Positions 516 to 56,068 of a stretch of 64,000 nucleotides of DNA are shown here, piece by piece (position 1 is the first letter of the stretch; each line of letters begins with the position of its first letter). The stretch spans positions 1,120,001 to 1,184,000 of the forward strand of contig CM000436.1 of assembly GCA_000165345.1 (NCBI GenBank), read 5' to 3'. The notes under the pieces are model-generated. The model worked only from the letters and a program-made list of their open reading frames with translations. It had not been told where the DNA came from and ran no database searches. Both the position numbers and the translations under genes were made by a program.

Positions 516-3500
516 TTAAATAATACTAGCTTTGATAATTTCAGAAATTTCCATCCTTTCATGATTACTAATCATATTTGAAAGAATATTAGAATTGTTT
601 GAGTTACCAGAAAATAATGGTAAGAGTCTTGAAACAATATATTTGTTATTCAAGTGGAATATTAGAAATTTAACTGGCCAAACCCACCAAAGTACTCTAG
701 ATTTAACTTGAGTTACATCTTCAAAATCGTAAATGTCAACAAGATCATTCTGTCTGAACCTATTATAATACAAAATAGAGAACTTATAAAGTTCTAATAT
801 AATTGTTTCCAAAATTGAATCAAATTGCTGAAGAGATACTCTGAAATTCATTCCGCTTCTAATACTTTGATTATTTTGATTGATAATGAGATCATAGGGC
901 ATAGAATTCTCACATAATCGTAATAGATCAGCTATATCAACCTCGAATAATATCGGAGATTCAAAGAAAAATGCTTGTTTAGTTCTGTATTCACATAATG
1001 ATGGAATTTTAATAATGATATGGTTTATAATTCTTGGTTGATTTTTTGAGTTTTCCATCAACCATTTAATTTCTGTAATAGATGAAAAGCCTGTCAAATT
1101 GTAAAATTCTGTAATAAATTCTAGTAAAGTTTCATCATTATGAACCATACTTTGGATATGGAAGATTCCCATAATCAAGCTTTTGAATATATCAATTCCT
1201 TCTTGAGAAATATCAACATTTTCATTTAAATGTGAGACTTCAATATTATTACCAACAGAAGTAGCAAAGATATCAAAAATTTGTTTGACTAGTGGATTAA
1301 TATTAACGTTTTGCTCTAATGCTGAGAGAATATAGTAATTAATAAACTCTGCAATCTGTAACAATATCTCTATCTGTGTATCTACATTAAAGATATCGTT
1401 TCTAATACTTTTAATAAATTCCTTATTCTTATCATCATTCATGTCTCTCTCAATACAAGTTTGAGATTGCAATAATAATGATCTTCTTTGAATTAATGTG
1501 GGATCTTGTTGCATTTTCAAAACCTGCAAGTGTATATCAGACAATAAATCAAAAATATTTTCAAGCCTTTTCCCACCTTGGATGAAACTTGAGCTAGAAA
1601 CTCTTCTTTTGTAATTCTCAAGGCTTTTTTTCATAAAATCTTGCATTTTAACGATTTCATCATTATTTACTTCTTTAAGTATAGTTGAAGAGCTCAAATC
1701 CTTCCCCCTTGAAACCGACTTTAATACATCTGATTGAGTTCTTAAAATCATTGAATTCACTCCAGGAGTAATTTTCCACAAAGCTCTAGACTTTGAGTAG
1801 TAATATTGACCAGCAGAAAGGTATTGCTTAGCATTATAAAGCAGATAACCCTGATCTTTCTTAAGATTATTTTCATTGTTGTAATTGTTAGAAATCAGTG
1901 CTAAACTATTATTTACACTTGGTTGATCATTTTCTAATTTATTAGTAAAATTATTGCTATATCTTTGCTTTGTCAACAAACCAGCTGTAGTATTGTCAAA
2001 ACTACCAGAAGTTTTAGTATTATTTATTAACCCTGGACTCTTTTGTTCTTTATTTTTATTACCTTTAATACTATATCTGTGGGTATCATTCAAATGAAAG
2101 TGCTCCAACCAATTCTTTAAATAAATTGAGTGCTCACTAAATTGAAATACTGATATACATAAATTCTTTATTAGCCAATTTTCCAATCTATCCCCGCCTT
2201 TTCTGCTAACTATTTCTTCATGTACCGTTTTTTGCATGCAAGAATCAATATATGACACGTAAGAAAATAAATAATAGTGGAGCCATTCTTTGCATGTGGA
2301 CAAAAATGATTTTTGGCTTTGTTTATTGAATTTTAAATTGTAATTGGACTCTTGTTGTTTAAGTCCGCAAAGAATGAATTCAATGATAGATGATTTTTTT
2401 TTAAGAATATTTTCTCTGTGATTTTTAAACGCAGAGAGTCTATCTTCAAGAAGTTGCTTTTCAGAAGCTGTGTTTGTATTTTTCAAATGATTGAATGAAA
2501 CATCTAGTTCTCTAAGATAGTCAAAAGATGGGTCATCGACAAGATCAACTTTTGAAAGGAACATTTCAATTTCCACGATATATTCACTATAAATTATATC
2601 CAAGGTATGTTGAAGATTTTGGTAAATCCATAGAGAACAATGGAATTCATAAGTATAAATGGATCTGACAGCATGGGTTATTGAAGAAGTTTTGCAGAAT
2701 TCAAGTAAAGTTTTGCACCCGCTTTGTTCGAAATTTACTATTATATCTTGAAAACTCATCAGCCTGTTGTTATATTGAGGCTCGCATTGATTGATTTCAA
2801 AAAGTAGAATAGAAAGGAAGTATTTAATGAAAGAGTTTGACTTTGAAATATGACTAGAAAATTCCGAAATTGAAGATGGAATGTGTATTTCAACTTTTTC
2901 TCCATTTGAAAGCCAAGGAGGTAGGAGTCCTGTATGATGAATGTATTCAGATTGGGAGTTAATTAGAGTAATAATGGATGGAATCTCCTTCTTGTAATAT
3001 AAAAGGCTCAAAACAATATTCAATGGTACCTCATAAATATTTTCAAATAAAATGGACATTATCTGTGGATGTGATGAATTCCCATGTTGTTCATTACCTT
3101 TGACTTTAGGTCTAGATACGCGAGTTAGGTTCCTACGAGCCAAAAAGTTCTCATTGTGAGATGCTTTATTTCTTTTGTTAATGATTACATCCTTATTTAA
3201 GGAAGATATGCTGTGCTCAATTGCAACCTGTTGAGATGTGATTAAAGAATATTTCGAATTTGATGGGATTGCAGACATATATTGGGATGCCGAAAGAATG
3301 TTATATCTGAATAATAGACGAAGAATAAATTGGAGTCCTTTATTATTTGATAATTCAAATAGTGTAAATTTCGTCAGTGATTTCTTCAAAATATCCATAT
3401 AAGTAAAACATAAAATTGCTTCGTTTGTTATCCTGGCATTATATTTCAGTCCAAGTGGATAAGTCTTACAGAAAAGATTCATCATTTCCAAAATTTCGAT

Positions 3501-6500
3501 GGTTTTTGAAACAAAGTTCTTAACTTCAATAAATAACTGAAGCTCAGAAATATTCAATAAAGAGTATGAATTAGAATTGGAATTAGAATTTGACTTTGAA
3601 TTAAAATTTGTGTTTGTTGAGTAATGATTTGCAAGATATACTTCATCTTCATTATTATTACGGTTAACCTCCACATTATAATTTGGGAACCACCAAGGTA
3701 ACAATAAATCTAAGAGGTTATTAATTGGTATTAAATTATTCTTCAGATGTGTAATATGTTCTTCTTTTAAAGATGAAAATATTGTCACTGAAATCGAATC
3801 ATTCATGGCAAAATCATTCGTATTATTTTCTGGAATAAGCCCATTGTCTTTGTTACTCATTTTTTTGCCATTATAAATTACTTCTGAAGATCCTGAAGTA
3901 TGAACTTGATTATGGGTTAACCAATCTGAAGCTTCAGATTTAAAGAATTCATTAATGCAAGAATTAATCTCCAATACCACATTCTTGTTTTTACAGCTAG
4001 AGGATTTCTGAATATTAGAGTCTTTCAATAAAAAAAAGCTGTTTTGATAAGAATGGCAGAAGTTGTCTGAACTATCAATCTGAGATTTAATAAATTCTGA
4101 AACAAATTTAAGACCATTATCATTTAATGAAAAATCTTTTGATTCAAACTCATCGTAATCATTGCTCTGATTAAGTTGATTCTTCAATAAATCATCTTCA
4201 TCAATGTATTTTGAAAAGTCTGAAGAATTTTTACTAATTAACTCAAAGCTAGTTTGTTGGAATAAAGGAATATCCCAAATACTCCTAATAATTCTTCCAA
4301 TTAGAAGAATTAGCCCTTTGCATCTAGGAGTAATAGCTAATTTGTGATTACAAGAATTAATACTCAAAAAGCAGTTCGAGTTTGACCTAGATTGTATATT
4401 TATATCTGTTAAAAGAGTAAGCCAAATCTTAATTAAAGTAATTGAAGGAAAGTCATTTTGAGCAAAATTCTTATCAAACATTTCAAAATCTTTATTTCTA
4501 ATATGGATTTCAAAAGGATTATCATTCTTGATATCGTTTGAGTAAAATCTTTGTATAAGTTCAGAATCGAGGATTTCTTTGGTATTCATTCCAATAATAC
4601 CTTGCCAAATTAAGGCAAAAAATTGTTCAAAAGTAATAGTTTGAGCAAAAGTACCTAAAAGTTTCATAACAAAAGTAATTGATCTATTATTTTGTAAACT
4701 ATCATCCTTAGATCTTCCTCCAAAAGATCTTAAACCATTCATTGGACTGAAACATTCATGATCATCAAAAACATTCATCATAAAAGAGTAATTATGTGGC
4801 TCCAAAGTCATCTTTGTAATAATATCCAAGAGCCTTTTTTTTTCCAAAATAAATATTCCCTTGGTTGAAATGATTGTCCAGTATCTACATTCAGTTATTT
4901 GATCTAAAATCAAGTCATTTAGTCCATTTGGAGGACATTGGGGAATGTTTATACCAAAAACAGAACATGATGTTGATGAATTCAAATATTTTTGAATTAA
5001 GCAATGTGGTTTGGCTTCTTCATTTGTTTCATTAGTATAAACAGACTTGGAACTTAATCTATTAAAGAAATATCTCCAAAGATGGAAAAATTTTGACCCA
5101 GAAGTTCTACATCCAAATCCTGATAAATTGTTATTAGAAAGTAGTTGATCGTGATTTGAAGCTGAAATATTTGGTCGAATTAAGAGGATTTCTTTCAAAT
5201 TATTATTTCCATAAGAAAATGGATTTGGAGTATTCCAAAGATTCTCGAATAATCTCTGGTATTTATTTGGTACATTTCTTTCTTGTATACTTAAAATAAG
5301 TCCCAAATTTGGATCAGAAAAAGAGTAATTCCATTCATTAAAGTAAGGAGGTGTATTTTGTACACTGGAAGATCCCAAATTTCTATTGGATAAATTCTTT
5401 GCAATAATTGTTTGATCAATACAAGAAGCTGATATACTTGAAGTAATTAATGATAATATTGCCTCATTATCATCACATAAATTCTCAGAAATTTCACCAA
5501 AATTCATTTCAGATCTTTGTGAAAAGATGGATTCTGGTAAATCTAAACCGTCTCCCATGTTTACAGTGGTTAAAATAGAAACTCCATTCGAATAAAGACT
5601 TGAATTAATCAATTTTTCTTCAGAATCTTCTGAGATTATCGAAGTTTTTTTAAACTCTTTAACTCTCATATTTATTGGAATTGAATAATTCAAATTATGT
5701 AGGAATTGATTATTAAATTGTGAATTAGAAACAAAGCAAGGTTTATTTCCACACTCAAAAACAGATTCTAAATATATACGATCTCCATGATCAGTAACTA
5801 AAATGGCATAAATAAAGTCACTTTCTTGTGGATTTGTGGGATGAATTGAATGAATATTAATATATGAAATAAAATTGGAGTTCTTCTTTTGTTGAATAAC
5901 TGATGATTGTTTCTTATTATAATTTGCATTAATTAATTTACTTAATTCACTTTTTAAAGTATTAATATTCAATCTAAATATTAAATTAATTGGTGTAAAA
6001 GAATTCGAGCTTAAAGTATTTGAACTTAAGTATTTTGTTAAAAAAGCACTTAAAGAATTTGAAGAATTTTCTTTTTCAATATAAGTTAAATCATCTGAGA
6101 TTTTTTTGATCAGAAAATTTCCTATTGGTATTAAAAATACATCAATATCTGAGTTCAAATAAAGCACATAAAGTAAACCTCTAAATTCATCAATAAACAT
6201 GGATTTAATACAACTCTGTGATTGACCAAAGAAATAATTTCGAATAAATCTTGGTAAATATGAAATAAAATTATTACCAGAAATCTTTATTAATCTAGCA
6301 AATGAATGGGTTTGATTATCATTATGAATAAATCCAGATATTTTCTGAACTTTTCTTTTTATCCAAGAATTTTCTTGTTCCATTGTATATTCATAAACAC
6401 TACCAGTATTACCACATCCGAGAAAAAATCTTCCTGAAGCTTGATGAGAAATAATCTTAGTAAAAGAAATATCTTTAAATCCAGAAAGAGAATGGTAACT

Positions 6501-7184
6501 ATCTTTTATACGATTAATAATATAATTTCCATTTGTATTTTTTATAATATTTAAAAGTATAATATAGTAATTCGTACAAACTAAAATTTTTATTAAAGAA
6601 GAGCTTTCATCCTCTATAGATCCAACACTGGTAATTATTGCTTTTTTATTGGTATTTTCTTGAAAGAATTCTTCAGTTTGAACAGAATATATGGGATCAT
6701 CTTTTGACCAATTCCAAAAAATTATCTCATTTTCATAATATATATAAAATATACTATGATTATTTAAAGTTTTTGATTTCAAAGCTAAATTTTCTGAAGA
6801 GAGTTTATAAATTAAATTTCTTCTATCATTGGAATCTTTTAAATTCAATTTCATACTTTTTAAATTATTTAAAATGGCTTGTTTAATTTTTTTGGGAAAA
6901 TATCCATTTAAAGCTTTAACTTCAAATGTTTCTGGTCGATATTCATAATCTGTTGAATAAATACCTTTAAGAAAATGGCTTAATTCAGAAAATTCTTCAT
7001 CTTGTTTAATACAAGAATTTAAAGAAATTCCAATAATATTAGATTTTGAAATGGTATCTAATGAATTATTTTCTTTATTCATTAAGTTTAAAGANTTCTC
7101 CATATTCTTTCCTCCTTTATTTATTTGGTTTCCAGTGTCAAATTGGAAAAAATCTTCATTTCTGGTACGAATATTATTAAACAT
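516..7184 (-). CDS. Giant 2222-aa protein. The N-terminal region resembles the beta-propeller of Nup155/Nup170-type nucleoporins; the rest is long and helical.
   Basis: Single uninterrupted ORF. The N-terminal segments IIFWNWSKDDPIYSV and AILVTDHGDRIYLES recall the Nup155 motifs (IFMWNYEDGG; TDNGRIFLAGKDG). The NSNSNSNS low-complexity tract is encoded by an (AATTAG/AATTGG)-like repeat at about 3570-3600. One N base lies in codon 29. Confidence 0.4.
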   Translation of the reverse strand: MFNNIRTRNEDFFQFDTGNQINKGGKNMEXSLNLMNKENNSLDTISKSNIIGISLNSCIKQDEEFSELSHFLKGIYSTDYEYRPETFEVKALNGYFPKKIKQAILNNLKSMKLNLKDSNDRRNLIYKLSSENLALKSKTLNNHSIFYIYYENEIIFWNWSKDDPIYSVQTEEFFQENTNKKAIITSVGSIEDESSSLIKILVCTNYYIILLNIIKNTNGNYIINRIKDSYHSLSGFKDISFTKIISHQASGRFFLGCGNTGSVYEYTMEQENSWIKRKVQKISGFIHNDNQTHSFARLIKISGNNFISYLPRFIRNYFFGQSQSCIKSMFIDEFRGLLYVLYLNSDIDVFLIPIGNFLIKKISDDLTYIEKENSSNSLSAFLTKYLSSNTLSSNSFTPINLIFRLNINTLKSELSKLINANYNKKQSSVIQQKKNSNFISYINIHSIHPTNPQESDFIYAILVTDHGDRIYLESVFECGNKPCFVSNSQFNNQFLHNLNYSIPINMRVKEFKKTSIISEDSEEKLINSSLYSNGVSILTTVNMGDGLDLPESIFSQRSEMNFGEISENLCDDNEAILSLITSSISASCIDQTIIAKNLSNRNLGSSSVQNTPPYFNEWNYSFSDPNLGLILSIQERNVPNKYQRLFENLWNTPNPFSYGNNNLKEILLIRPNISASNHDQLLSNNNLSGFGCRTSGSKFFHLWRYFFNRLSSKSVYTNETNEEAKPHCLIQKYLNSSTSCSVFGINIPQCPPNGLNDLILDQITECRYWTIISTKGIFILEKKRLLDIITKMTLEPHNYSFMMNVFDDHECFSPMNGLRSFGGRSKDDSLQNNRSITFVMKLLGTFAQTITFEQFFALIWQGIIGMNTKEILDSELIQRFYSNDIKNDNPFEIHIRNKDFEMFDKNFAQNDFPSITLIKIWLTLLTDINIQSRSNSNCFLSINSCNHKLAITPRCKGLILLIGRIIRSIWDIPLFQQTSFELISKNSSDFSKYIDEDDLLKNQLNQSNDYDEFESKDFSLNDNGLKFVSEFIKSQIDSSDNFCHSYQNSFFLLKDSNIQKSSSCKNKNVVLEINSCINEFFKSEASDWLTHNQVHTSGSSEVIYNGKKMSNKDNGLIPENNTNDFAMNDSISVTIFSSLKEEHITHLKNNLIPINNLLDLLLPWWFPNYNVEVNRNNNEDEVYLANHYSTNTNFNSKSNSNSNSNSYSLLNISELQLFIEVKNFVSKTIEILEMMNLFCKTYPLGLKYNARITNEAILCFTYMDILKKSLTKFTLFELSNNKGLQFILRLLFRYNILSASQYMSAIPSNSKYSLITSQQVAIEHSISSLNKDVIINKRNKASHNENFLARRNLTRVSRPKVKGNEQHGNSSHPQIMSILFENIYEVPLNIVLSLLYYKKEIPSIITLINSQSEYIHHTGLLPPWLSNGEKVEIHIPSSISEFSSHISKSNSFIKYFLSILLFEINQCEPQYNNRLMSFQDIIVNFEQSGCKTLLEFCKTSSITHAVRSIYTYEFHCSLWIYQNLQHTLDIIYSEYIVEIEMFLSKVDLVDDPSFDYLRELDVSFNHLKNTNTASEKQLLEDRLSAFKNHRENILKKKSSIIEFILCGLKQQESNYNLKFNKQSQKSFLSTCKEWLHYYLFSYVSYIDSCMQKTVHEEIVSRKGGDRLENWLIKNLCISVFQFSEHSIYLKNWLEHFHLNDTHRYSIKGNKNKEQKSPGLINNTKTSGSFDNTTAGLLTKQRYSNNFTNKLENDQPSVNNSLALISNNYNNENNLKKDQGYLLYNAKQYLSAGQYYYSKSRALWKITPGVNSMILRTQSDVLKSVSRGKDLSSSTILKEVNNDEIVKMQDFMKKSLENYKRRVSSSSFIQGGKRLENIFDLLSDIHLQVLKMQQDPTLIQRRSLLLQSQTCIERDMNDDKNKEFIKSIRNDIFNVDTQIEILLQIAEFINYYILSALEQNVNINPLVKQIFDIFATSVGNNIEVSHLNENVDISQEGIDIFKSLIMGIFHIQSMVHNDETLLEFITEFYNLTGFSSITEIKWLMENSKNQPRIINHIIIKIPSLCEYRTKQAFFFESPILFEVDIADLLRLCENSMPYDLIINQNNQSIRSGMNFRVSLQQFDSILETIILELYKFSILYYNRFRQNDLVDIYDFEDVTQVKSRVLWWVWPVKFLIFHLNNKYIVSRLLPLFSGNSNNSNILSNMISNHERMEISEIIKASII

Positions 7185-15114: not shown

Positions 15115-15600
15115 ATGGGGTTTCCAGTATTTTCAGGAATAACATTAATGATACTATTAATGGGACCATATTATTTAATGTATAATATCTCAAGTGTTTT
15201 TGAAACAACAGGAACAAATCCATTGTTATTTACTTCAATATCTTACTCTGTATCGGGTTGTTTTTTGAAATCATTACTTTTAGCTTCAATCCCTATTCCA
15301 TCTCAAAGCACTATGGAATATTTGAGTATTATTACTAAAGTTATTTATTTATTTTTCATTAGGTTAATTTTACAAAGCAAAAATGCAAAAAATCACGAAG
15401 TACATGTAAGAATAAATGTTGGTATACTAGGATGGTGTATTGCACATACTGCTCTAACTTATTTTATTCCTCTTGCTACTGATACGTCATTAAGTTCAGA
15501 TTTCTCATTGGATTATGTTAGATTAATATTATCTTCATATTCAGCATCACTTTCTACATATACATGTTTCNTATTGTATGTACATGTTAACGAAGCCTAA
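15115..15600 (+). CDS. TMEM147-like small multipass membrane protein
   Basis: VHVRINVGILGWCIAHTAL and the C-terminal LSTYTCFxLYVHVNEA align with human TMEM147 (YKIMVAALGWATAELIMSR ... LSTLALYVAVVNVHS). Several hydrophobic helices. One N base near the 3' end. Confidence 0.5.
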   Translation: MGFPVFSGITLMILLMGPYYLMYNISSVFETTGTNPLLFTSISYSVSGCFLKSLLLASIPIPSQSTMEYLSIITKVIYLFFIRLILQSKNAKNHEVHVRINVGILGWCIAHTALTYFIPLATDTSLSSDFSLDYVRLILSSYSASLSTYTCFXLYVHVNEA

Positions 15601-16174
15601 TGCTTTATGACCTATAATGTGCAACAATAACTGCAATAAGTAGCTGCTGCTGGATTCAGCCCTTTACATTGGGACTATAAAGCATGGAAGGCATAAATAA
15701 TATCGCTCCTTTTATTAATCATCCAATATCTAGCTTTATTGGCATACTATATCAACTTGAACTTTAATCGAAAGAGAGAAACAATTTCTAACAATAAAAA
15801 AGAATAATTCTAGTTATATAACAATTATTTCTATTTTACTTTATTTTATTTTATTTTTCTCCCATTATTTTTCTTCTTTGTATATTATTTATATTATTTA
15901 TAACACGTAATATATTGTTTTGTTAAACTATTTTGATAATTTACACAAATCAACCTTGAAACTTTGCATATTTCAAAATTTTCTAGTTGTTCATCGACCA
16001 AAATTTAATCACTAAATTATGAAATTCTTATTATTTATTCGAATTCCCCTCATTTTGTTTTCAATTAGTAGAAAACTTAAAGATAATACTAAATTAATAT
16101 GAACATGTAATTTATTCCCAAAAATTAAAATATAAATTATTATTATTATTATTACCTCTCCTCATGCATGCAAT

Positions 16175-17617
16175 TCACACGTAATAATTGACTCTAAACT
16201 CTTTAGAACTAATATCATCACTAGGAAGAGGATCAATAATATGATTTCTTGAAAATCCAACAAAGAACCAAATTATATTTGAAGTTAAAAATAATAAAAA
16301 GAATATTCCAATACTACATGGAATAGAAACAGCAGGATCTGCAAAGTTAATAGCTGAGTAAATAAAGCCAAGATCATCTTGAGATTGTGGATTTGGAAGC
16401 TTAAGAATAAAGTAAACAATTGTAAAAATCAGGTATATTAAGCAATAAAGGAATGAATAGAATGCTTGAGAGATAAAAAATGGTATTGTAGTAAAATAAG
16501 TATCTAGTGAAAGTAAAATTGCTGTTAAACCATGTTTATTAAAAGTTAAGAAAGAGAAACCATCAACTCCAACAGGTGATATTATACTCATTGACCAATA
16601 AACAATGGAAACAATGAAAGATGCTGGTAATGCAATTGCATGAAATACCCACATAAGTCTAATTAATAATGGTAAATTAATATTTGTTGTAGTATTATCC
16701 ATTCTTTGGTTAATTTCATCAGCAAAATGTGGTCTGTCTGTTTCTTTGCAATATTTTATAATAAACATATGAGATTTTAAATGATTGTAATATCTTACAA
16801 AAATATTTCTTGTCTTTCTGGGTATAATATATTCATTATTTCTTTCAGTATTATTTTTTATTGCATTCTTATTTAAATTTTCAGGCGATTCAAAAGCTGT
16901 CGAAATTGAAACAATACTTGCATGACCATAAGAAGCTTCTTTATTTTTATTACTATTATTATTTTCAAGATTTAAATCAACCATTTGAATTTCGTTTAAT
17001 TGTGCATTTTTTGGACTACTTGAGTATCCATTAGTTGTATGATCTGATACAACAACTTGTTCATTATGTTTTGAAGGGTTAATATGTTCAAATTTTCGAT
17101 CTAAAATATTTAATATGGAACCACGTGGTCTAGAATTGACATTTTGATGACCAATAATATCATCATCAAGTTTTAAATGAATTCTTCCACCAATTGATGG
17201 ACTATTAGTCATTTTCAAAGACTTTATATACTTTTTTCTACCAAAAGAGTTATTTGCATATGAATATATAGTTGAAGTTGTTGCAAAAAAATAGTAAATA
17301 ATTGTTATAGCATAAGTCCAATTTGTAACATATACACCCCAGTACATAGCATATCCTAACTTATAATAATTAGATACATCCAATCCAAGCATAATAAGTA
17401 GATATAGAAAAACAGATAGTCTAAGGTAAATCAAAAACCATTGTGGAATAATCCAAGAACAGTTAAAGTGATTAGTTTGTTCAAATTCATCAAAAGTGAA
17501 TGTGATTCTATTAATAGCTCTACTTAATTTATACTCCCATATAAATCTATGTAAAATTAATTTCCATCCTCTTTTAATATTTTCTGAAACATTCACCATT
17601 TTTTTTTTTGTTTTCAA
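16175..17617 (-). CDS. Multipass membrane protein with a large hydrophilic N/S-rich insertion. It may be FAR-17a/AIG1/Rolling-stone-like; I cannot firmly assign a family.
   Basis: About 6-8 predicted hydrophobic helices at both ends of the 480-aa ORF. The central approx. 200 aa are low complexity. Confidence 0.45.
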   Translation of the reverse strand: MKTKKKMVNVSENIKRGWKLILHRFIWEYKLSRAINRITFTFDEFEQTNHFNCSWIIPQWFLIYLRLSVFLYLLIMLGLDVSNYYKLGYAMYWGVYVTNWTYAITIIYYFFATTSTIYSYANNSFGRKKYIKSLKMTNSPSIGGRIHLKLDDDIIGHQNVNSRPRGSILNILDRKFEHINPSKHNEQVVVSDHTTNGYSSSPKNAQLNEIQMVDLNLENNNSNKNKEASYGHASIVSISTAFESPENLNKNAIKNNTERNNEYIIPRKTRNIFVRYYNHLKSHMFIIKYCKETDRPHFADEINQRMDNTTTNINLPLLIRLMWVFHAIALPASFIVSIVYWSMSIISPVGVDGFSFLTFNKHGLTAILLSLDTYFTTIPFFISQAFYSFLYCLIYLIFTIVYFILKLPNPQSQDDLGFIYSAINFADPAVSIPCSIGIFFLLFLTSNIIWFFVGFSRNHIIDPLPSDDISSKEFRVNYYV

Positions 17618-25039: not shown

Positions 25040-25533
25040 TTTTTTTTTTTTTCTTTTTTTTTTCTCCTGTTTCAAATTTTAATTCTAACTTTTCCTCTCA
25101 ACACATATTATTACAAAAACAATAGGAATTCACTGGAACATTGAAATCAATTCACTAAATATTAAAAGAAAAGATTGTAATTGAATAATAACAAAATCTA
25201 CCAGCTAAAATAGAACAATTATAAATCATTATATTACTACCATTAAAATATTGATAATCAACTAACTTTCCCAAAAATAATCCCAACTTTATCTAAATAA
25301 ATTTCCATCATTTTTTCATCAAATTATTCTTATATTCTAAATGCAGTAATTAACTATTATTTATCCACATAAATGTGCGTGCATGCATGATGGCGCTCAT
25401 GTAAAAAATGACGTGTTAAAAAATAAATCGAATAAAAATAGAAAGTGATAATAGTAGTTTTAGTTGTTGTCTTGATGAAGTAATTTTGAATAAATAGTTG
25501 AAGATAATGTGAACTTCACCTTTTTTCTCAAAT

Positions 25534-25569
<36 letters not shown>

Positions 25570-25630
25570 TAGAAATAATTCTCCAATTATAATTCCCAAG
25601 AAACGAGAGAATAATTACTTGGGCTATAAA

Positions 25631-34915: not shown

Positions 34916-35261
34916 TACCCCTGGCCTTATTATATTCAAAATGGCGGGAAAATGTGCATATAAGAGATATATAATATATATGCTTGTATATATTTAAAAT
35001 CAGGATAAGCAAGTTGTATAAGAATTATCACAACTCTTTGAATTGACTATAATAAGCCTATTCTACATCAGTAATTAAAAAAATGGATAATTCTAATTCA
35101 GGAATGAGAAAAGGAAATAACTTATTTAAAGGAAGATAATTAATTATAAAATATTAGAAATTGTTTAGCCTAGTAATTAAGATAATAATGTAAATGGCTA
35201 TATGATTCTTACATATTTTTGAGCTCTCTTTTTTATTGCTTTAATAATTTTCCTATGATGA

Positions 35262-45211: not shown

Positions 45212-45883
45212 CTCGTTAATTTTAACTTTGCGATTTAATCCTTAGTAGAAAAAAAAAGTAGGAAATAAAACAAAAATTCTCTTATCTTTAAATAGGTTAT
45301 TATTTTCTATATTATTGGCTTGACTTACTTCAAGTTTAGTTGTGATGTTCCATTTCAATCAAAATCTATTTCTTATAACTCTATATTCTTATTTTCTTTC
45401 TAAATTCGAAAGAATTTCTTTTTTTTTTTTTGTTTTATTTCCAATTGTCACACAGGTATTCCGTAAGTGTCTACTTTGACTATTGGGCAAAAAAAAAATA
45501 TGGAGGCTCCCCACACATGCAACGCCGGTATTAAAAGTTAAACAAAACTTAGTAATAACATGTGGATTAATAATTGGAAAAATGGTAATTTGAAAATTCT
45601 TAAAATTTTTAATAAAAATTATTTCAATTATAACAAAATATTCATTACTATAATTAAAAATGACTAATATTTTGACTAATTCTATTTTTATTATTTTTTT
45701 TCAATTATTTTTATCATTTTTTCGATTTTAATTGACTTATCGTACTTACGTGTATATAATTTAATAATTACATGCAATTCATGTAATTGCTATTAATTAA
45801 TACACGCAATACATTACGTAATTTGAAAAAAAATAATTAATAAAAAAATAATATATATATATAATATAAATGAGTTTTTGATA

Positions 45884-49693: not shown

Positions 49694-51058
49694 ATGCCTA
49701 TAGATATTAATAGAATTAGAGTGGAGAAAGGTGGAGATTATCAAAAGATAGCCGAGTCAGAAATGGCAAGGTATAAAGGACTAGAAACTCTTGAGGAACT
49801 CGTTAAAGTAGATCAGAAATGGAGAGAGGATATGTTTAAATTAGAGCAAAGCAAAAAGGAGTTAAATTCAATTTCAAAAGAAATTGCTCAAATTAAAAAG
49901 AAAGATCCAAAGGCAGATTGCAAGGATTTACAAGACAAAAGCGTTCAATTAAAGAAGAATCTTCCAATTATCGAGAAACAAGCATTGGAAACTGAAGAAG
50001 TAAGAGATAAGTTATGGCATAAAATTGGTAATGTCTTACAACCTGATGTTCCTATTTCCAATACAGAGGATGACAACCTTGTATTGAGAACATGGGGAGA
50101 AATACCAGATATTAAGGTTGATGGAACACCAGGGAAATTGCATCACAATGAAATCATGTCCAGATTAGGATTCTATGATAGTGTGAAAGGTGCAGAATTA
50201 GCAGGCCATCGTGGTTACTTTTTAAAGGATTATGGTGTAATAATGAGTATGGCTCTCTCACATTATGCTATGGGATTCTTGTTAAAAAAAGGATATTTGG
50301 CAATTCAACCGCCATACTTTATGAAAAGAGATTTGATGGGTAAAGCAGCTGAATTGCAGGACTTTGAGGAGACACTTTATCACATTCCTTCTGATAACAG
50401 CAAAGGCGAGGTTGATTCAAATAGCTTATTTTTGATTGCAACATCTGAGCAACCAATAGCTGCAATGCATCATAATGTGACACTTGAAGATAAGGACTTA
50501 CCAATCAAATATGCTGGTATTTCAACATGCTTTAGAAAAGAGGCAGGCGCTCATGGTAAAGATACCTGGGGAATATTTAGAATTCATCAATTTGAAAAAG
50601 TTGAGCAATTCTGTGTTACTTTACCAGAAGACTCACAAAAGATTCATGAGGAAATGATTAGCATTTCCGAGGAATTTTATCAATCTTTGGAATTACCTTA
50701 TAGAGTAATTTCAATCGTATCAGGAGCGCTTAATGACGCTGCATCGAAAAAGTATGATTTAGAAGCTTGGTTCCCCGGATATAACTCATATAGGGAACTT
50801 GTTTCATGCTCAAACTGTACTGATTACCAATCTAGAGCGCTTGAATGTCGTCTGGGATTCAGAAAAGAAGGAGAGCGTGAAAAACATTACTGCCATTTCC
50901 TAAACGGTACTTTATGTGCAATCCAAAGAACAATGTGCTGTATTGTTGAAAACTATCAAACTCCAGATGGTCTTAGAATACCAAAAGTCTTACAGCCTTA
51001 TATGAATGGCGTCGAATTCATTCCATTCAAAAACGAAACCGCTACTTGTGCCAATTAG
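49694..51058 (+). CDS. Seryl-tRNA synthetase (class II), cytosolic type, 454 aa
   Basis: N-terminal MPIDINRIRVEKGG, typical of the SerRS coiled-coil arm. Class II motifs: motif 2 FRKEAGAHGKDTWGIFRIHQFEKVEQF, motif 3 GTLCAIQRTMCCIVENYQ. Confidence 0.85.
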   Translation: MPIDINRIRVEKGGDYQKIAESEMARYKGLETLEELVKVDQKWREDMFKLEQSKKELNSISKEIAQIKKKDPKADCKDLQDKSVQLKKNLPIIEKQALETEEVRDKLWHKIGNVLQPDVPISNTEDDNLVLRTWGEIPDIKVDGTPGKLHHNEIMSRLGFYDSVKGAELAGHRGYFLKDYGVIMSMALSHYAMGFLLKKGYLAIQPPYFMKRDLMGKAAELQDFEETLYHIPSDNSKGEVDSNSLFLIATSEQPIAAMHHNVTLEDKDLPIKYAGISTCFRKEAGAHGKDTWGIFRIHQFEKVEQFCVTLPEDSQKIHEEMISISEEFYQSLELPYRVISIVSGALNDAASKKYDLEAWFPGYNSYRELVSCSNCTDYQSRALECRLGFRKEGEREKHYCHFLNGTLCAIQRTMCCIVENYQTPDGLRIPKVLQPYMNGVEFIPFKNETATCAN

Positions 51059-51219
51059 TCTTTTTTTAGCATACGTGGGAAGGCGGGCTTTTCCCAACAT
51101 AGAATTGCATGCAAACTTAAATATATATAGGAAATATTCACAAAATTATAAATATGAACAATTAAGTTTGTGAAATTTAGAAAATCTATATTTTAACACT
51201 AGAATTTAATAAGTTATTT

Positions 51220-52908
51220 CTAAATACGGCTTGGAGGCTTTCTTTCCCAAATTATTTCTCCCTCTTCTCCTATTATAAGATCGTCCACGTAATAGGGAAT
51301 ACAAAAGATTGCCATATTATATATATGCCCCTTAGAAAATGGAGAGTTTTGCGTATCTGGAAATGGTTTTAGATATGAAATCTTATTCCATGCAAGATTC
51401 TCCCAAGTAGTTAAGTTATTATAGGCAAGAAAAAGGTGATATATAACAAGCAATAGAGAGAGAAAAGCAATAAAGAGTGCATTCCCAGCAATGAAAATCA
51501 TTGAGCAAATATCAAAGATTGTTAGGCGGCTACCATTCAGATCTGCTTTGAATAGACAAATTGAGATACAATAAAGAATCCAAATACACTCGGGAAATTG
51601 AACAAGCGAAAGCCACCAAAATTTGCATCTATTATATTCACCAATGCATACACCAAGCCAAGGACAATGGTGATCATGGGTCCGAATACATCTTTCACAA
51701 GAAGTACAATGCTTTGTACGAAGAGGTTGATACATTCTGCAATAATCACAAAATCTTAACCTAACTCCATTCTGATACATTTTCCCCTCTTTAAAGACAA
51801 AGTAGCCATCATTACTTTGAAAACAGCTATTTTTGAGACTATTACCACTCATTTCTCTTCTTGGTAGGAGATCAATGCCGTCTGAAGAACATGGAGAAAG
51901 CGGAAATGATAAACTATTACTATTCAAATTTGATACTGGATGAGTTAGTTGTTCCAATTTTGGTGTTTTTTGATCCATATCATTAAAATTTAATTTAAAA
52001 GTTGATCCTTCTTCATTTAAGTTTCCCCTGTCAATAAAGCTACATTCAGGAGATTTATTATCACCATCTATAAGATCTATAGATAATTTGCAGCATTCCG
52101 AGCTATTATTACTTAACAAGTTATCCAAGATCCTATTATTATTCAAAGAAAACTGAGAAACTCCTATTGAATTTAGAAGTTGTCCAGGCGCACTTTCCAT
52201 TACTAAACTTAAACTAGCTGTGCTTTTATCAATTCTTATTGGAGATTTTATCAAATTACTTGTATTTAAAAGTGGGAAAGATGTGGTACCGCTTCCCAGT
52301 CTTAAAATACTGTTTGATAAATTTAAATCATTTGTATTTGAATCGCATCTAGAATCAGCCAATGATTTATCATCCAAAATCTCAAAACTAGAGTTATTGA
52401 TTGATTCATTTATAGTCTGTAAATTATTTATTGACCCAGCTTCAAGGTCAAATTCATCAAATTCTTCATCCCTTTCTTCATCTGAAGATCCAAATATATC
52501 ACTATTACTTATTTTTTTTTCATTAGTGCCTCTTTTCAAATTTCTTAATTCCAAATTAAATTTTAGTTTTAATGGATCCCTAATTTTGTCCACTGGTTTC
52601 AATTTTGTTGATGGACAACTTTTCAGGTATCCTGGATCTCCAAACGATATTAATATATATAAAGTATAATTTAACATACCAAATATTAAAGAGTAAACTA
52701 TTAAAAAAGGAGCATTATTTATATACCAATCATTACTTGTATTATTTAACAACAACCATACTGGATAATATGCATATAATCTAAGTATACATACAAATAT
52801 ACCTGTAATATTCCAATTATTCTTTGAATTCACAATAAAACGAGATGGTAACAATCCCAGAGGGTTATCTGTATATGATGATAAGTCATTCTCCTTGTAT
52901 CTTACCAT
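51220..52908 (-). CDS. DHHC-type protein S-acyl (palmitoyl) transferase with a long low-complexity insert
   Basis: CDYCRMYQPLRTKHCTSCERCIRTHDHHCPWLGVCIGEYN is the DHHC cysteine-rich domain. It is flanked by transmembrane helices. Confidence 0.8.
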   Translation of the reverse strand: MVRYKENDLSSYTDNPLGLLPSRFIVNSKNNWNITGIFVCILRLYAYYPVWLLLNNTSNDWYINNAPFLIVYSLIFGMLNYTLYILISFGDPGYLKSCPSTKLKPVDKIRDPLKLKFNLELRNLKRGTNEKKISNSDIFGSSDEERDEEFDEFDLEAGSINNLQTINESINNSSFEILDDKSLADSRCDSNTNDLNLSNSILRLGSGTTSFPLLNTSNLIKSPIRIDKSTASLSLVMESAPGQLLNSIGVSQFSLNNNRILDNLLSNNSSECCKLSIDLIDGDNKSPECSFIDRGNLNEEGSTFKLNFNDMDQKTPKLEQLTHPVSNLNSNSLSFPLSPCSSDGIDLLPRREMSGNSLKNSCFQSNDGYFVFKEGKMYQNGVRLRFCDYCRMYQPLRTKHCTSCERCIRTHDHHCPWLGVCIGEYNRCKFWWLSLVQFPECIWILYCISICLFKADLNGSRLTIFDICSMIFIAGNALFIAFLSLLLVIYHLFLAYNNLTTWENLAWNKISYLKPFPDTQNSPFSKGHIYNMAIFCIPYYVDDLIIGEEGEIIWERKPPSRI

Positions 52909-53737
52909 ATCATTATTTTTCTTTTTTTTCCCTTAGTAAAATAGATTTCTGTTTTCAATATAGTTTACTTTTTATTTTACTTTAACTTTTATTCTTTATT
53001 TTATACTTATATTTTGATAAGCCTATTTAGTTACTTACCTTAACACACTTCCCCCCACTAAAAAAAAAGCCAAGAATATTAATATCAAGTGATTAATATT
53101 TCACTAAATAGATTTTCAAATCACACAGATCTCAAGGGAATAGTGTCAGATTACCTTATTTTCTCGAAATTCTAATTTTTTTTAATACTTAATTAAATTT
53201 GTTTATTGCTTTAGCATGCACACCATTTAAGAATATTTACTAATACCTTAATTTCTGACCTAAATGTGTGTAATACAACAAATAACTTGCCAGGACTCTT
53301 TTATTCTTATAATAAACCTTTAAAATATTATCAAGATGTATTATATATATATATTTTTTAGTTACACCTTCTTTAACCCGGCCTTTGAAAATTTAAATAT
53401 TTCAATTTAGTATTCATCCTTTTTTTTTTTTTTTCAAATTACCCCATCAATTGCATTTCACAGTTTACCGCCAAGTCCCTGCCTACAAATGTGAGAGTTC
53501 CCGCCTTTAATTAACAGTTTTGGCGGGAGCTGATTGTTAGTCTTCGAGAACTGAGCGCGTAAATGTGGAATTGGGGCAAAAATGCATATATACTATCGGT
53601 TGGGACCGGAGAGGGGTAAATGGGATCTTATAAGGAGAAAAAAAAAAGAAAGAAGAATAGTATTGTCTTTGAAGTGATCATTTAATTGTTTGTTATTGAT
53701 TTTTTTTCTATTTGTTTATATCACCTAATAGTATGAA

Positions 53738-55261: not shown

Positions 55262-55549
55262 ATGTTAGTAAACACAGATGTTGATATTTCAAATGAATTA
55301 GAATCTATGTCCATTTTAAGGCCAAAGTACCCAACACATGTAGTGACTAAACAAGGAATAGAGTTAAGAAGTTCATCTTATGGAGTTGAAGATAGAGAGG
55401 GTAATATTGGTGAATTATTAGCAGTAACTCAGATCACAGGAGTTGTTTATATGACATTTGATTCTTCTGGAAGGCTTTATTCAATTGAAAAAGATATTGC
55501 AAGAGAATTTCTTGGAGAGTTGCAGGATGAAAAGATGAGTTGGGAATAA
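55262..55549 (+). CDS. Small hypothetical protein (95 aa)
   Basis: Uninterrupted ORF with coding-like composition. An E2F-like CCCGCC site lies about 125 bp upstream. No family recognised. Confidence 0.3.
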   Translation: MLVNTDVDISNELESMSILRPKYPTHVVTKQGIELRSSSYGVEDREGNIGELLAVTQITGVVYMTFDSSGRLYSIEKDIAREFLGELQDEKMSWE

Positions 55550-55986: not shown

Positions 55987-56068
55987 GGCAAAGTGCTCGA
56001 GTGGTTAAGAGGTCAGTCTCGAAAACTGATAGCGTTTCGCTGCGCAGGTTCGAATCCTGCCTTTGTCG
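55987..56068 (+). tRNA. tRNA-Ser (anticodon CGA), type II with long variable arm
   Basis: Acceptor stem GGCAAAG/CTTTGTC with discriminator G. D-loop GTGGTTAAG. Anticodon stem TCAGT/ACTGA with loop CTCGAAA (anticodon CGA). Long variable arm. T-arm GCAGG-TTCGAATC-CTGC. Immediately followed by a T6 Pol III terminator. Confidence 0.85.

What the first reader, a model, noticed from the sequence alone, without database searches (positions are those of the whole stretch)
51059..51219. E2F-like and GCATGC motifs inside 3'-3' convergent spacers
The 160-bp spacer between the seryl-tRNA synthetase stop (51058) and the DHHC gene stop (51220, minus strand) contains GGAAGGCGGGCTTTTCCC (51079-51096) followed by TTGCATGCAA (51105-51114). 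Similar motif pairs sit in other convergent spacers: 25377-25400 (between the Nudix and CHD 3' ends), 16162-16170 (between the TMEM147 and membrane-protein 3' ends) and 34943-34952 (GGCGGGAAAA just after the ELO stop). Promoter-type elements where no protein-coding gene starts could mean unannotated antisense or non-coding transcripts, bidirectional termination or insulator elements, or that the motifs act as boundary elements rather than classical promoters.
Basis: inference. Interest (0 to 1): 0.5.

Follow-up and report, generated by a model that had tools for sequence, protein, structure and literature searches.

The report
Promoter motifs between convergent Cryptosporidium genes
The short gap between two tail-to-tail Cryptosporidium parvum genes carries real, evolutionarily conserved copies of the parasite's two main promoter motifs, most likely a start site for a non-coding antisense RNA of a kind already described genome-wide in 2021.

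Summary
The window is Cryptosporidium parvum, a ~1.34-1.38 Mb chromosome, at about 1.16 Mb. The motifs are present as described, with one 1-nt offset. GGCGGG is the core of the published C. parvum E2F/DP motif. TGCATGCA is the published ApiAP2 "AP2_1" site.

They are not chance. The seven convergent spacers (2,369 bp) hold 5 core hits, against 0.17 expected from shuffles. That density (2.1/kb) equals promoter-bearing spacers and is about 14 times the genic rate.

They are under selection. Four of the five hits are conserved in C. ubiquitum, against 14% for random intergenic 6-mers. AGGCGGGCTT in the SerRS|DHHC spacer is invariant in five species.

No conserved ORF, Rfam family or RNA structure explains them.

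They are not a general property of convergent spacers. Three of seven spacers in the window lack them, as do all eleven examined in C. bovis, C. ryanae and C. muris.

The best reading is transcription-factor sites driving antisense or non-coding transcripts. Li et al. 2021 found antisense lncRNAs starting at the 3' ends of sense genes, with these two motifs as the top upstream motifs.

I found no transcript for this locus: none of the 324 lncRNA sequences I could search matches it. The finding is real and conserved, but it is an instance of a known phenomenon.

The parts
49694..51058 (+). Seryl-tRNA synthetase gene, the left convergent partner (C. parvum EAK89605.1 / CPATCC_004343)
   Evidence: ORF. 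Pfam tRNA-synt_2b and Seryl_tRNA_N. Exact protein match to C. parvum assemblies.
51220..52908 (-). DHHC palmitoyltransferase gene, the right convergent partner
   Evidence: ORF. Pfam DHHC. Gene calls.
51059..51219 (.). Spacer D: the 161-bp 3'-3' convergent spacer that holds the motif pair
   Evidence: Two core motif hits against 0.038 expected.
51073..51092 (.). Conserved block ACGTGGGAAGGCGGGCTTTT with the E2F/DP-type core GGCGGG at 51082-51087. AGGCGGGCTT (51081-51090) is invariant in C. parvum, C. meleagridis, chipmunk genotype I, C. ubiquitum and C. canis.
   Evidence: Alignments. It is one of about 20 blocks of 8 bp or more that are invariant in all 5 species across 5.8 kb of intergenic DNA.
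51105..51114 (.). TTGCATGCAA: palindromic ApiAP2 'AP2_1' site ([T/C]GCATGC[A/G]). GCATGCA is kept in 4 species; C. canis has GCATACA.
   Evidence: Motif identity from PMC3734150.
34943..34952 (.). GGCGGGAAAA: canonical E2F-type site in spacer C (ELO | WD40, 34916-35261), 27 nt after the ELO stop. It is conserved in C. ubiquitum, which also has TTGCATGCATG 12 bp further on.
25362..25432 (.). Spacer B (Nudix | CHD, 25040-25630). TGCATGCA at 25380-25387 is not conserved in C. ubiquitum. It sits inside a conserved block: ATCCACATAAATG ... GGCGCTCATGTAAAAAATGACGTGTTAAAAAATAA.
   Evidence: alignment.
16165..16172 (.). TGCATGCA in spacer A (TMEM147 | membrane protein, 15808-16174), 3 nt from the stop codon of the minus-strand gene. 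Conserved in C. ubiquitum.

Best explanation
The GGCGGG-core and TGCATGCA elements in the SerRS|DHHC spacer, and in three other convergent spacers of this window, are genuine DNA binding sites for the Cryptosporidium E2F/DP and ApiAP2 (cgd2_3490-type) transcription factors, kept by selection. They most likely form a small promoter, possibly bidirectional, in the region shared by the two genes' 3' ends. From there RNA polymerase II would start a non-coding transcript running antisense through the 3' end of DHHC (+ strand, start around 51120-51220), of SerRS (- strand, start around 50980-51060), or both.

Shown here: presence, enrichment, conservation, and absence of coding or structured-RNA alternatives. 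Taken from published C. parvum data: this motif pair typically lies within 100 bp upstream of antisense lncRNAs, which begin at the 3' ends of sense genes. Inferred: that a transcript starts here, and its direction.
For: (1) Motif identity. GGCGGG and GCATGC(A) are the published C. parvum E2F/DP and AP2_1 cores. The cgd2_3490 ApiAP2 domain binds [T/C]GCATGC[A/G] on protein-binding arrays (PMC3734150).

(2) Enrichment. Convergent spacers carry 2.1 core hits per kb, promoter-bearing spacers 2.0 per kb, genic DNA 0.15 per kb. Shuffles give a mean of 0.165, and 0 of 5000 reach the observed 5.

(3) Selection.
- 4 of 5 convergent-spacer hits are conserved in C. ubiquitum, against 14.4% for random intergenic 6-mers (binomial P = 0.002).
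- That rate matches hits in bona fide promoter spacers, where E2F cores are conserved 16 of 19 times.
- AGGCGGGCTT is invariant in 5 species. It is among about 20 such blocks in 5.8 kb of intergenic DNA, and 6 of those blocks are E2F cores.

(4) Published precedent. Li et al. [quoted passage not shown] E2F/DP1 and ApiAP2_1 are the top two motifs within 100 bp upstream. Listed instances such as AGCCCGCCTTT and TGCCCGCCTTT are very close to AGCCCGCCTTC here. The CpBGF annotation now holds 766 lncRNAs.

(5) Alternatives excluded. There is no conserved ORF, no Rfam family, no stable or covarying RNA fold (z-scores of 0.1 to -0.6, no compensatory pairs).

(6) Spacer length. The motif-free convergent spacers can be as short as 31 and 100 bp. 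The motif-bearing ones are 161-591 bp, which fits extra content.
Against: There is no direct transcript evidence. Probes from both flanks of all four spacers, in antisense orientation, found nothing in the stored part of the Li 2021 lncRNA FASTA (324 of 396 sequences). The exact motif words of spacers C and D are also absent from that paper's upstream-motif table.

The sporozoite ATAC-seq study put 888 of 984 open-chromatin peaks upstream of genes and saw no AP2 motifs in open chromatin.

The GCATGC in spacer B is not conserved in C. ubiquitum. C. felis keeps the SerRS|DHHC arrangement but not the motifs.

The sample is small: 7 convergent spacers and 5 hits.
Confidence: 0.55

Rival explanations
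1. Roadblock, terminator or insulator. Transcription factors bound between convergent genes stop read-through polymerases, or separate the two transcription units, rather than starting transcription.
For: The sites sit exactly where convergent polymerases would meet. The two E2F-type cores lie 24 and 27 nt after the SerRS and ELO stop codons. They are conserved. The genome is very compact, and transcripts are reported to overlap.
Against: The sites are not general. 3 of 7 convergent spacers in the window lack them, including the tightest ones of 31 and 100 bp, where collisions would be worst. In C. bovis, C. ryanae and C. muris, 0 of 11 convergent spacers carry them, although promoter spacers in the same loci do. 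I found no precedent in Apicomplexa in the papers searched. The same words upstream of lncRNAs already have a published promoter reading.
Confidence: 0.12
2. RNA-level element. The conserved words act within the 3' UTRs of the flanking mRNAs as protein-binding sites for stability, localisation or translation, not as DNA sites.
For: The sites are almost certainly transcribed as 3' UTR. They lie 24-55 nt after the SerRS stop, 27 nt after the ELO stop, and 3 nt after the stop of the gene at 16175. Both GGCGGG cores are in the sense orientation of the upstream gene. The palindromic TGCATGCA would be present in both overlapping UTRs.
Against: No stable or covarying structure was found. Distances from stop codons range from 3 to 341 nt. 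The same words are the established, conserved DNA motifs of promoters in the same window, where they are not in UTRs of any fixed orientation.
Confidence: 0.1
3. A distal or orphaned regulatory element. The sites would be either an extra enhancer-like input to the neighbouring protein-coding promoters 1.4-1.7 kb away, or a promoter stranded by a rearrangement. In C. bovis and C. ryanae, SerRS is followed in tandem by an alpha-amylase gene, with TGCATGCA about 100 bp after the SerRS stop.
For: This spacer is a synteny breakpoint within the genus. DHHC follows SerRS in the parvum clade, alpha-amylase in bovis/ryanae, and a TRAM/LAG1 gene in muris. The bovis and ryanae spacers carry TGCATGCA at a similar distance.
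Against: A neutral relic would not stay invariant across five species. Both neighbours have their own promoter spacers with several conserved E2F sites. The bovis/ryanae similarity is a single short motif in a promoter-bearing spacer and could easily be coincidence. An orphaned promoter that still fires would merge with the best explanation.
Confidence: 0.13
4. Chance occurrences of short GC-rich words with no function.
For: The motifs are only 6-8 bp long. The E2F-like site in spacer D lacks canonical flanks. One of the five hits (spacer B) is not conserved.
Against: 0 of 5000 shuffles reach the observed count. 4 of 5 hits are conserved, against a 14% background. A 10-mer is invariant in 5 species.
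Confidence: 0.03

Closest known systems
Upstream regions of C. parvum antisense lncRNAs (Li, Baptista, Sateriale, Striepen & Kissinger 2021, PMC7840661)
   Same: Same organism. Same two motifs, E2F/DP1 and ApiAP2_1 BGCATGCAH, sometimes co-occurring (17 lncRNAs). Same location, at the 3' end of a sense CDS. Listed instances such as AGCCCGCCTTT and AATTGCATGCA are nearly identical to those here.
   Different: No lncRNA could be tied to these four spacers in the 324 of 396 sequences available to me. In that paper most antisense RNAs are head-to-head with an upstream mRNA, implying shared bidirectional promoters. Here the spacers are purely 3'-3', so the promoter would be stand-alone.
E2F/DP and AP2_1 cis-elements of C. 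parvum protein-coding promoters (Oberstaller et al. 2013, PMC3734150; ATAC-seq preprint 10.1101/2025.01.17.633476)
   Same: Same core words. Same density per kb and same degree of cross-species conservation as in the divergent and tandem spacers of this window.
   Different: No protein-coding gene starts next to them. The flanks of the 51082 site are non-canonical. AP2 motifs were not seen in sporozoite open chromatin.
Antisense transcription from 3' nucleosome-free regions in budding yeast (own knowledge: Xu et al. 2009, Neil et al. 2009)
   Same: A compact genome. Factor-bound regions at gene 3' ends give rise to non-coding antisense transcripts.
   Different: Different factors. Chromatin state was not measured here. 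This is an analogy only.
Reb1/Rap1 roadblock termination in yeast (own knowledge: Colin et al. 2014)
   Same: A promoter-type DNA-binding factor site located downstream of a gene's 3' end.
   Different: The sites here are not general to convergent spacers. No evidence for such a mechanism exists in Apicomplexa.

Membership tests
C. parvum E2F/DP-type cis-element | Core 5'-GGCGGG-3' or 5'-[C/G]GCGC[G/C]-3' (Oberstaller 2013) | tested here: met
   GGCGGG at 51082-51087 and at 34943-34948. The spacer B site has only GGCGC, a partial match.
C. parvum E2F/DP-type cis-element | Canonical flanks (TTTSSCGC; MEME motif TTSSCGCCWAA in Li 2021) | tested here: inconclusive
   34943 (TTTTCCCGCCATT on the minus strand) fits. 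51082 reads AGCCCGCCTTC, where 4 flank positions differ from the consensus. It still resembles accepted instances such as AGCCCGCCTTT (p = 5.9e-5) and TGCCCGCCTTT.
C. parvum E2F/DP-type cis-element | Cross-species conservation comparable to promoter E2F sites | tested here: met
   Both convergent-spacer cores are conserved in C. ubiquitum; 18 of 21 are conserved overall, against 14% background. AGGCGGGCTT is invariant in 5 species.
C. parvum E2F/DP-type cis-element | Bound by E2F/DP proteins | not testable with these tools
   Needs ChIP, CUT&RUN or EMSA.
ApiAP2 AP2_1 site | Palindrome [T/C]GCATGC[A/G], the binding site of cgd2_3490 | tested here: met
   TGCATGCA at 51106, 25380 and 16165. Definition.
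ApiAP2 AP2_1 site | Conservation at the orthologous position | tested here: met
   51107 and 16166 are conserved in C. ubiquitum; 25381 is not. That is 2 of 3, against 4 of 7 in promoter-bearing spacers.
Antisense lncRNA promoter (Li et al. 2021 class) | A non-coding transcript whose 5' end lies within about 100 bp of the motifs and overlaps a neighbouring gene in antisense | not testable with these tools
   No expression data are available here. Searches of the stored 324 of 396 lncRNA sequences were negative.
Antisense lncRNA promoter (Li et al. 2021 class) | Located at the 3' end of the sense CDS, with no protein-coding gene starting there | tested here: met
   Gene calls. No conserved ORF in the spacers.
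Structured ncRNA or cis-regulatory RNA | Rfam match, or a thermodynamically unusual or covarying fold | tested here: not met
   No Rfam hit in any of the four spacers, even at E <= 5. z-scores from 0.12 to -0.62. No compensatory pairs.
Generic convergent-gene boundary or terminator element | Present in most convergent spacers and across species | tested here: not met
   4 of 7 spacers in the window. 0 of 11 in the C. bovis, C. ryanae and C. muris loci.

The most novel reading that the evidence does not exclude
The conserved E2F/AP2 sites in 3'-3' spacers are not promoters. They would be factor-occupied roadblocks or insulators that the C. parvum clade evolved at selected convergent gene pairs, to stop polymerase collision or read-through in a very compact genome without RNAi. 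In a related variant, they are promoters stranded at synteny breakpoints and then co-opted. Either would be a new use of E2F/AP2 factors in Apicomplexa.
Probability: 0.1. Interest if true: 0.6.

Novelty: new member of a known kind. Interest (0 to 1): 0.22.

Why it matters
If a transcript starts here, it adds four conserved, factor-defined antisense or non-coding promoters to the C. parvum map. One of them faces a palmitoyltransferase and a tRNA synthetase. The comparison also shows that such 3'-end promoters can be selected as strongly as protein-coding promoters across C. parvum, C. meleagridis, C. ubiquitum and C. canis. That argues these antisense RNAs are functional rather than noise. The general phenomenon is already published, so the value is incremental: specific, testable sites rather than a new principle.

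Tried and rejected
1. Small ORF in the spacer. ORFs of 28-55 aa exist, but similarity to C. ubiquitum appears in several frames at once, which is DNA-level rather than coding conservation. Rejected.

2. An unannotated spliced mini-gene on the minus strand of spacer B (ATG near 25311, GTTAGT...TTTTAG intron). The 'intron' is better conserved than the 'exons', and the peptide is not kept in C. ubiquitum. Rejected as coding. The conserved blocks remain unexplained.

3. Hairpin GGGAA...TTCCC around the E2F core. z-score 0.12, outer stem not kept in C. ubiquitum or C. canis, no covariation. Rejected.

4. Rfam at gathering threshold and at E <= 5. The only hit is a tRNA-Ser elsewhere.

5. Direct lookup of a published lncRNA at these loci in the Li 2021 supplements. 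Six searches and reads found nothing. The files are truncated (324 of 396 sequences) and give no coordinates, so this is inconclusive. The T2T paper and the small-RNA paper have no stored supplements.

6. Fixed spacing or orientation of the E2F and GCATGC pair. Spacings are 10, 13 and 25 bp here and 46 bp or more in promoters. E2F orientation relative to the downstream gene is 2 versus 2 in tandem spacers. There is no fixed module.

7. Deep conservation. The C. felis spacer is unalignable and motif-free. The orthologues of spacers B and C in C. bovis are motif-free. The C. muris spacer is motif-free.

Full report
**What the window is.** The 454-aa ORF at 49694-51058 is a seryl-tRNA synthetase. 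The minus-strand ORF at 51220-52908 is a DHHC palmitoyltransferase (Pfam). The SerRS protein is identical to that of Cryptosporidium parvum (EAK89605.1 / CPATCC_004343). It lies at about 1.16 Mb on a chromosome of about 1.34-1.38 Mb in three C. parvum assemblies.
- A: 15808-16174
- B: 25040-25630
- C: 34916-35261
- D: 51059-51219

**Observation check.** The sequences are present as described. The only correction is that GGAAGGCGGGCTTTTCCC sits at 51078-51095, one base left of the stated range. GGCGGG and GCATGC(A) are not merely E2F-like. They are the published core words of the C. parvum E2F/DP and ApiAP2 'AP2_1' cis-elements, and the cgd2_3490 AP2 domain binds [T/C]GCATGC[A/G] (PMC3734150). 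The site in spacer D has the core but non-canonical flanks (AAGGCGGGCTT). The site in spacer C (GGCGGGAAAA) is canonical.

**Chance.**
- Across the window, GGCGGGAA occurs 5 times against 0.15 expected, and TGCATGCA 9 times against 0.52.
- I built a gene map from ORFs and NCBI calls and sorted the spacers into classes. Core hits (GGCGSS or GCATGC) run at 0.15/kb in genes, about 2.0/kb in divergent plus tandem spacers, and 2.1/kb in the seven convergent spacers (5 hits in 2,369 bp).
- Dinucleotide shuffles of the convergent spacers give a mean of 0.165 hits, and none of 5,000 reaches 5. Spacer D alone has 2 hits against 0.038 expected, P about 3e-4.

**Conservation.** I fetched orthologous loci from eight other Cryptosporidium species through the SerRS and CHD proteins.
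- The SerRS|DHHC arrangement holds in C. meleagridis, chipmunk genotype I, C. ubiquitum, C. canis and C. felis.
- In the spacer alignment, ACGTGGGAAGGCGGGCTTTT is kept in four species and AGGCGGGCTT in five. GCATGCA is kept in four, with GCATACA in C. canis. The C. felis spacer is unalignable.
- In long alignments of C. parvum to C. ubiquitum, a random intergenic 6-mer is fully conserved 14.4% of the time. E2F cores are conserved 18 of 21 times and GCATGC 6 of 10 times.
- The convergent-spacer hits are conserved 4 of 5 times (binomial P = 0.002), the same rate as hits in true promoter spacers.
- Across five species, AGGCGGGCTT is one of about 20 invariant blocks of 8 bp or more in 5.8 kb of intergenic DNA. 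Six of those blocks are E2F cores and one is a tRNA.
- In spacer C, C. ubiquitum keeps GGCGGGAA and adds TTGCATGCATG 12 bp away, the same motif order as in spacer D.
- In spacer B the GCATGC is specific to C. parvum, but an adjoining block (ATCCACATAAATG ... GGCGCTCATGTAAAAAATGACGTG...) is almost perfectly conserved.

**What it is not.**
- No ORF in the spacers is conserved as protein.
- A tempting spliced mini-ORF in spacer B fails because its 'intron' is better conserved than its 'exons'.
- Rfam finds nothing in the spacers, even at E <= 5.
- Neither strand of spacer D folds better than shuffles, and alignments show no compensatory pairs.
- The conserved unit is therefore the short DNA word itself.

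**Generality.** In the window, 4 of 7 convergent spacers carry a motif. The 31-bp and 100-bp spacers have none, and the seventh holds a tRNA-Ser gene. In the C. bovis, C. ryanae and C. muris loci, none of 11 convergent spacers has a core hit, although the promoter-type spacers in the same loci do. This argues against a generic terminator or insulator role. It favours locus-specific, clade-specific elements.

**Comparison with what is known.** Li et al. 2021 (PMC7840661) described 396 C. parvum lncRNAs.
- Their top two motifs within 100 bp upstream are E2F/DP1 and ApiAP2_1 (BGCATGCAH).
- Their motif table lists instances nearly identical to those here.
- The T2T CpBGF annotation now has 766 lncRNAs (PMC12179316).
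- ATAC-seq shows E2F as the dominant motif of open chromatin.

What I could not do is show the transcript. Probes for antisense RNAs on both sides of all four spacers found nothing in the 324 of 396 lncRNA sequences stored.

**Verdict.**
- Most likely (about 0.55): conserved E2F/DP and AP2 binding sites forming a stand-alone promoter for antisense or non-coding transcription at the shared 3' end of SerRS and DHHC, with the same reading in spacers A-C.
- Roadblock or insulator function: 0.12.
- 3'-UTR RNA element: 0.10.
- Distal or orphaned regulatory element at a synteny breakpoint: 0.13.
- Chance: 0.03.
- This is a new instance of a known kind, and its interest is low to moderate.

Noticed in passing
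window 55987-56068 (+): A tRNA-Ser (anticodon CGA) gene sits inside the 'convergent' spacer between the 95-aa ORF (55262-55549) and the DEAD-box helicase gene. It is invariant across five Cryptosporidium species.
   Followed up: partly
window 51059-51219; L007 11372-11640, L008 11372-11580, L009 11390-11804: The spacer after SerRS is a synteny breakpoint within the genus. DHHC (convergent) follows in the parvum/ubiquitum/canis/felis group. An alpha-amylase gene follows in tandem in C. bovis and C. ryanae, with TGCATGCA about 100 bp after the SerRS stop. A TRAM/LAG1 gene (convergent, no motifs) follows in C. muris.
   Followed up: partly
window 25190-25275 and 25362-25432: Two non-coding blocks in the 591-bp Nudix|CHD spacer are very highly conserved with C. 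ubiquitum. They contain a word resembling Li et al.'s lncRNA motif 5 (ATCCACAT), GGCGC and ACGTG. There is no Rfam hit and no conserved ORF. Possibly an unannotated ncRNA or its promoter.
   Followed up: partly
window 45448-45466: A 19-bp block, TCACACAGGTATTCCGTAA, is invariant in five species. It lies in the spacer between the 1023-aa gene and the RIO-type kinase gene. It could be an unannotated exon, an ncRNA or a regulatory site.
   Followed up: no
window 53439-53505: The DHHC|ACPS divergent promoter holds a cluster of five-species-invariant blocks (TTACCCCAT, TTGCATTTCACA, AAGTCCCTGCCTAC, TTCCCGCC). Besides the E2F site, these suggest further uncharacterised conserved promoter words.
   Followed up: no
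window 2233-2240: One TGCATGCA lies inside the coding region of the 2222-aa minus-strand gene (516-7184). It is the only one of nine copies that is not intergenic.
   Followed up: no
window 25538-25572 and 16139-16156: Trinucleotide microsatellites, (ATA)n and (ATT)n, occur in convergent spacers B and A. In the spacer alignments the ATT run is gapped in C. ubiquitum, and the ATA run is aligned only in part and poorly conserved there.
   Followed up: no
window 15571 and elsewhere: The window contains 41 N characters, for example inside the TMEM147 region at 15571. The source assembly has ambiguous bases.
   Followed up: no
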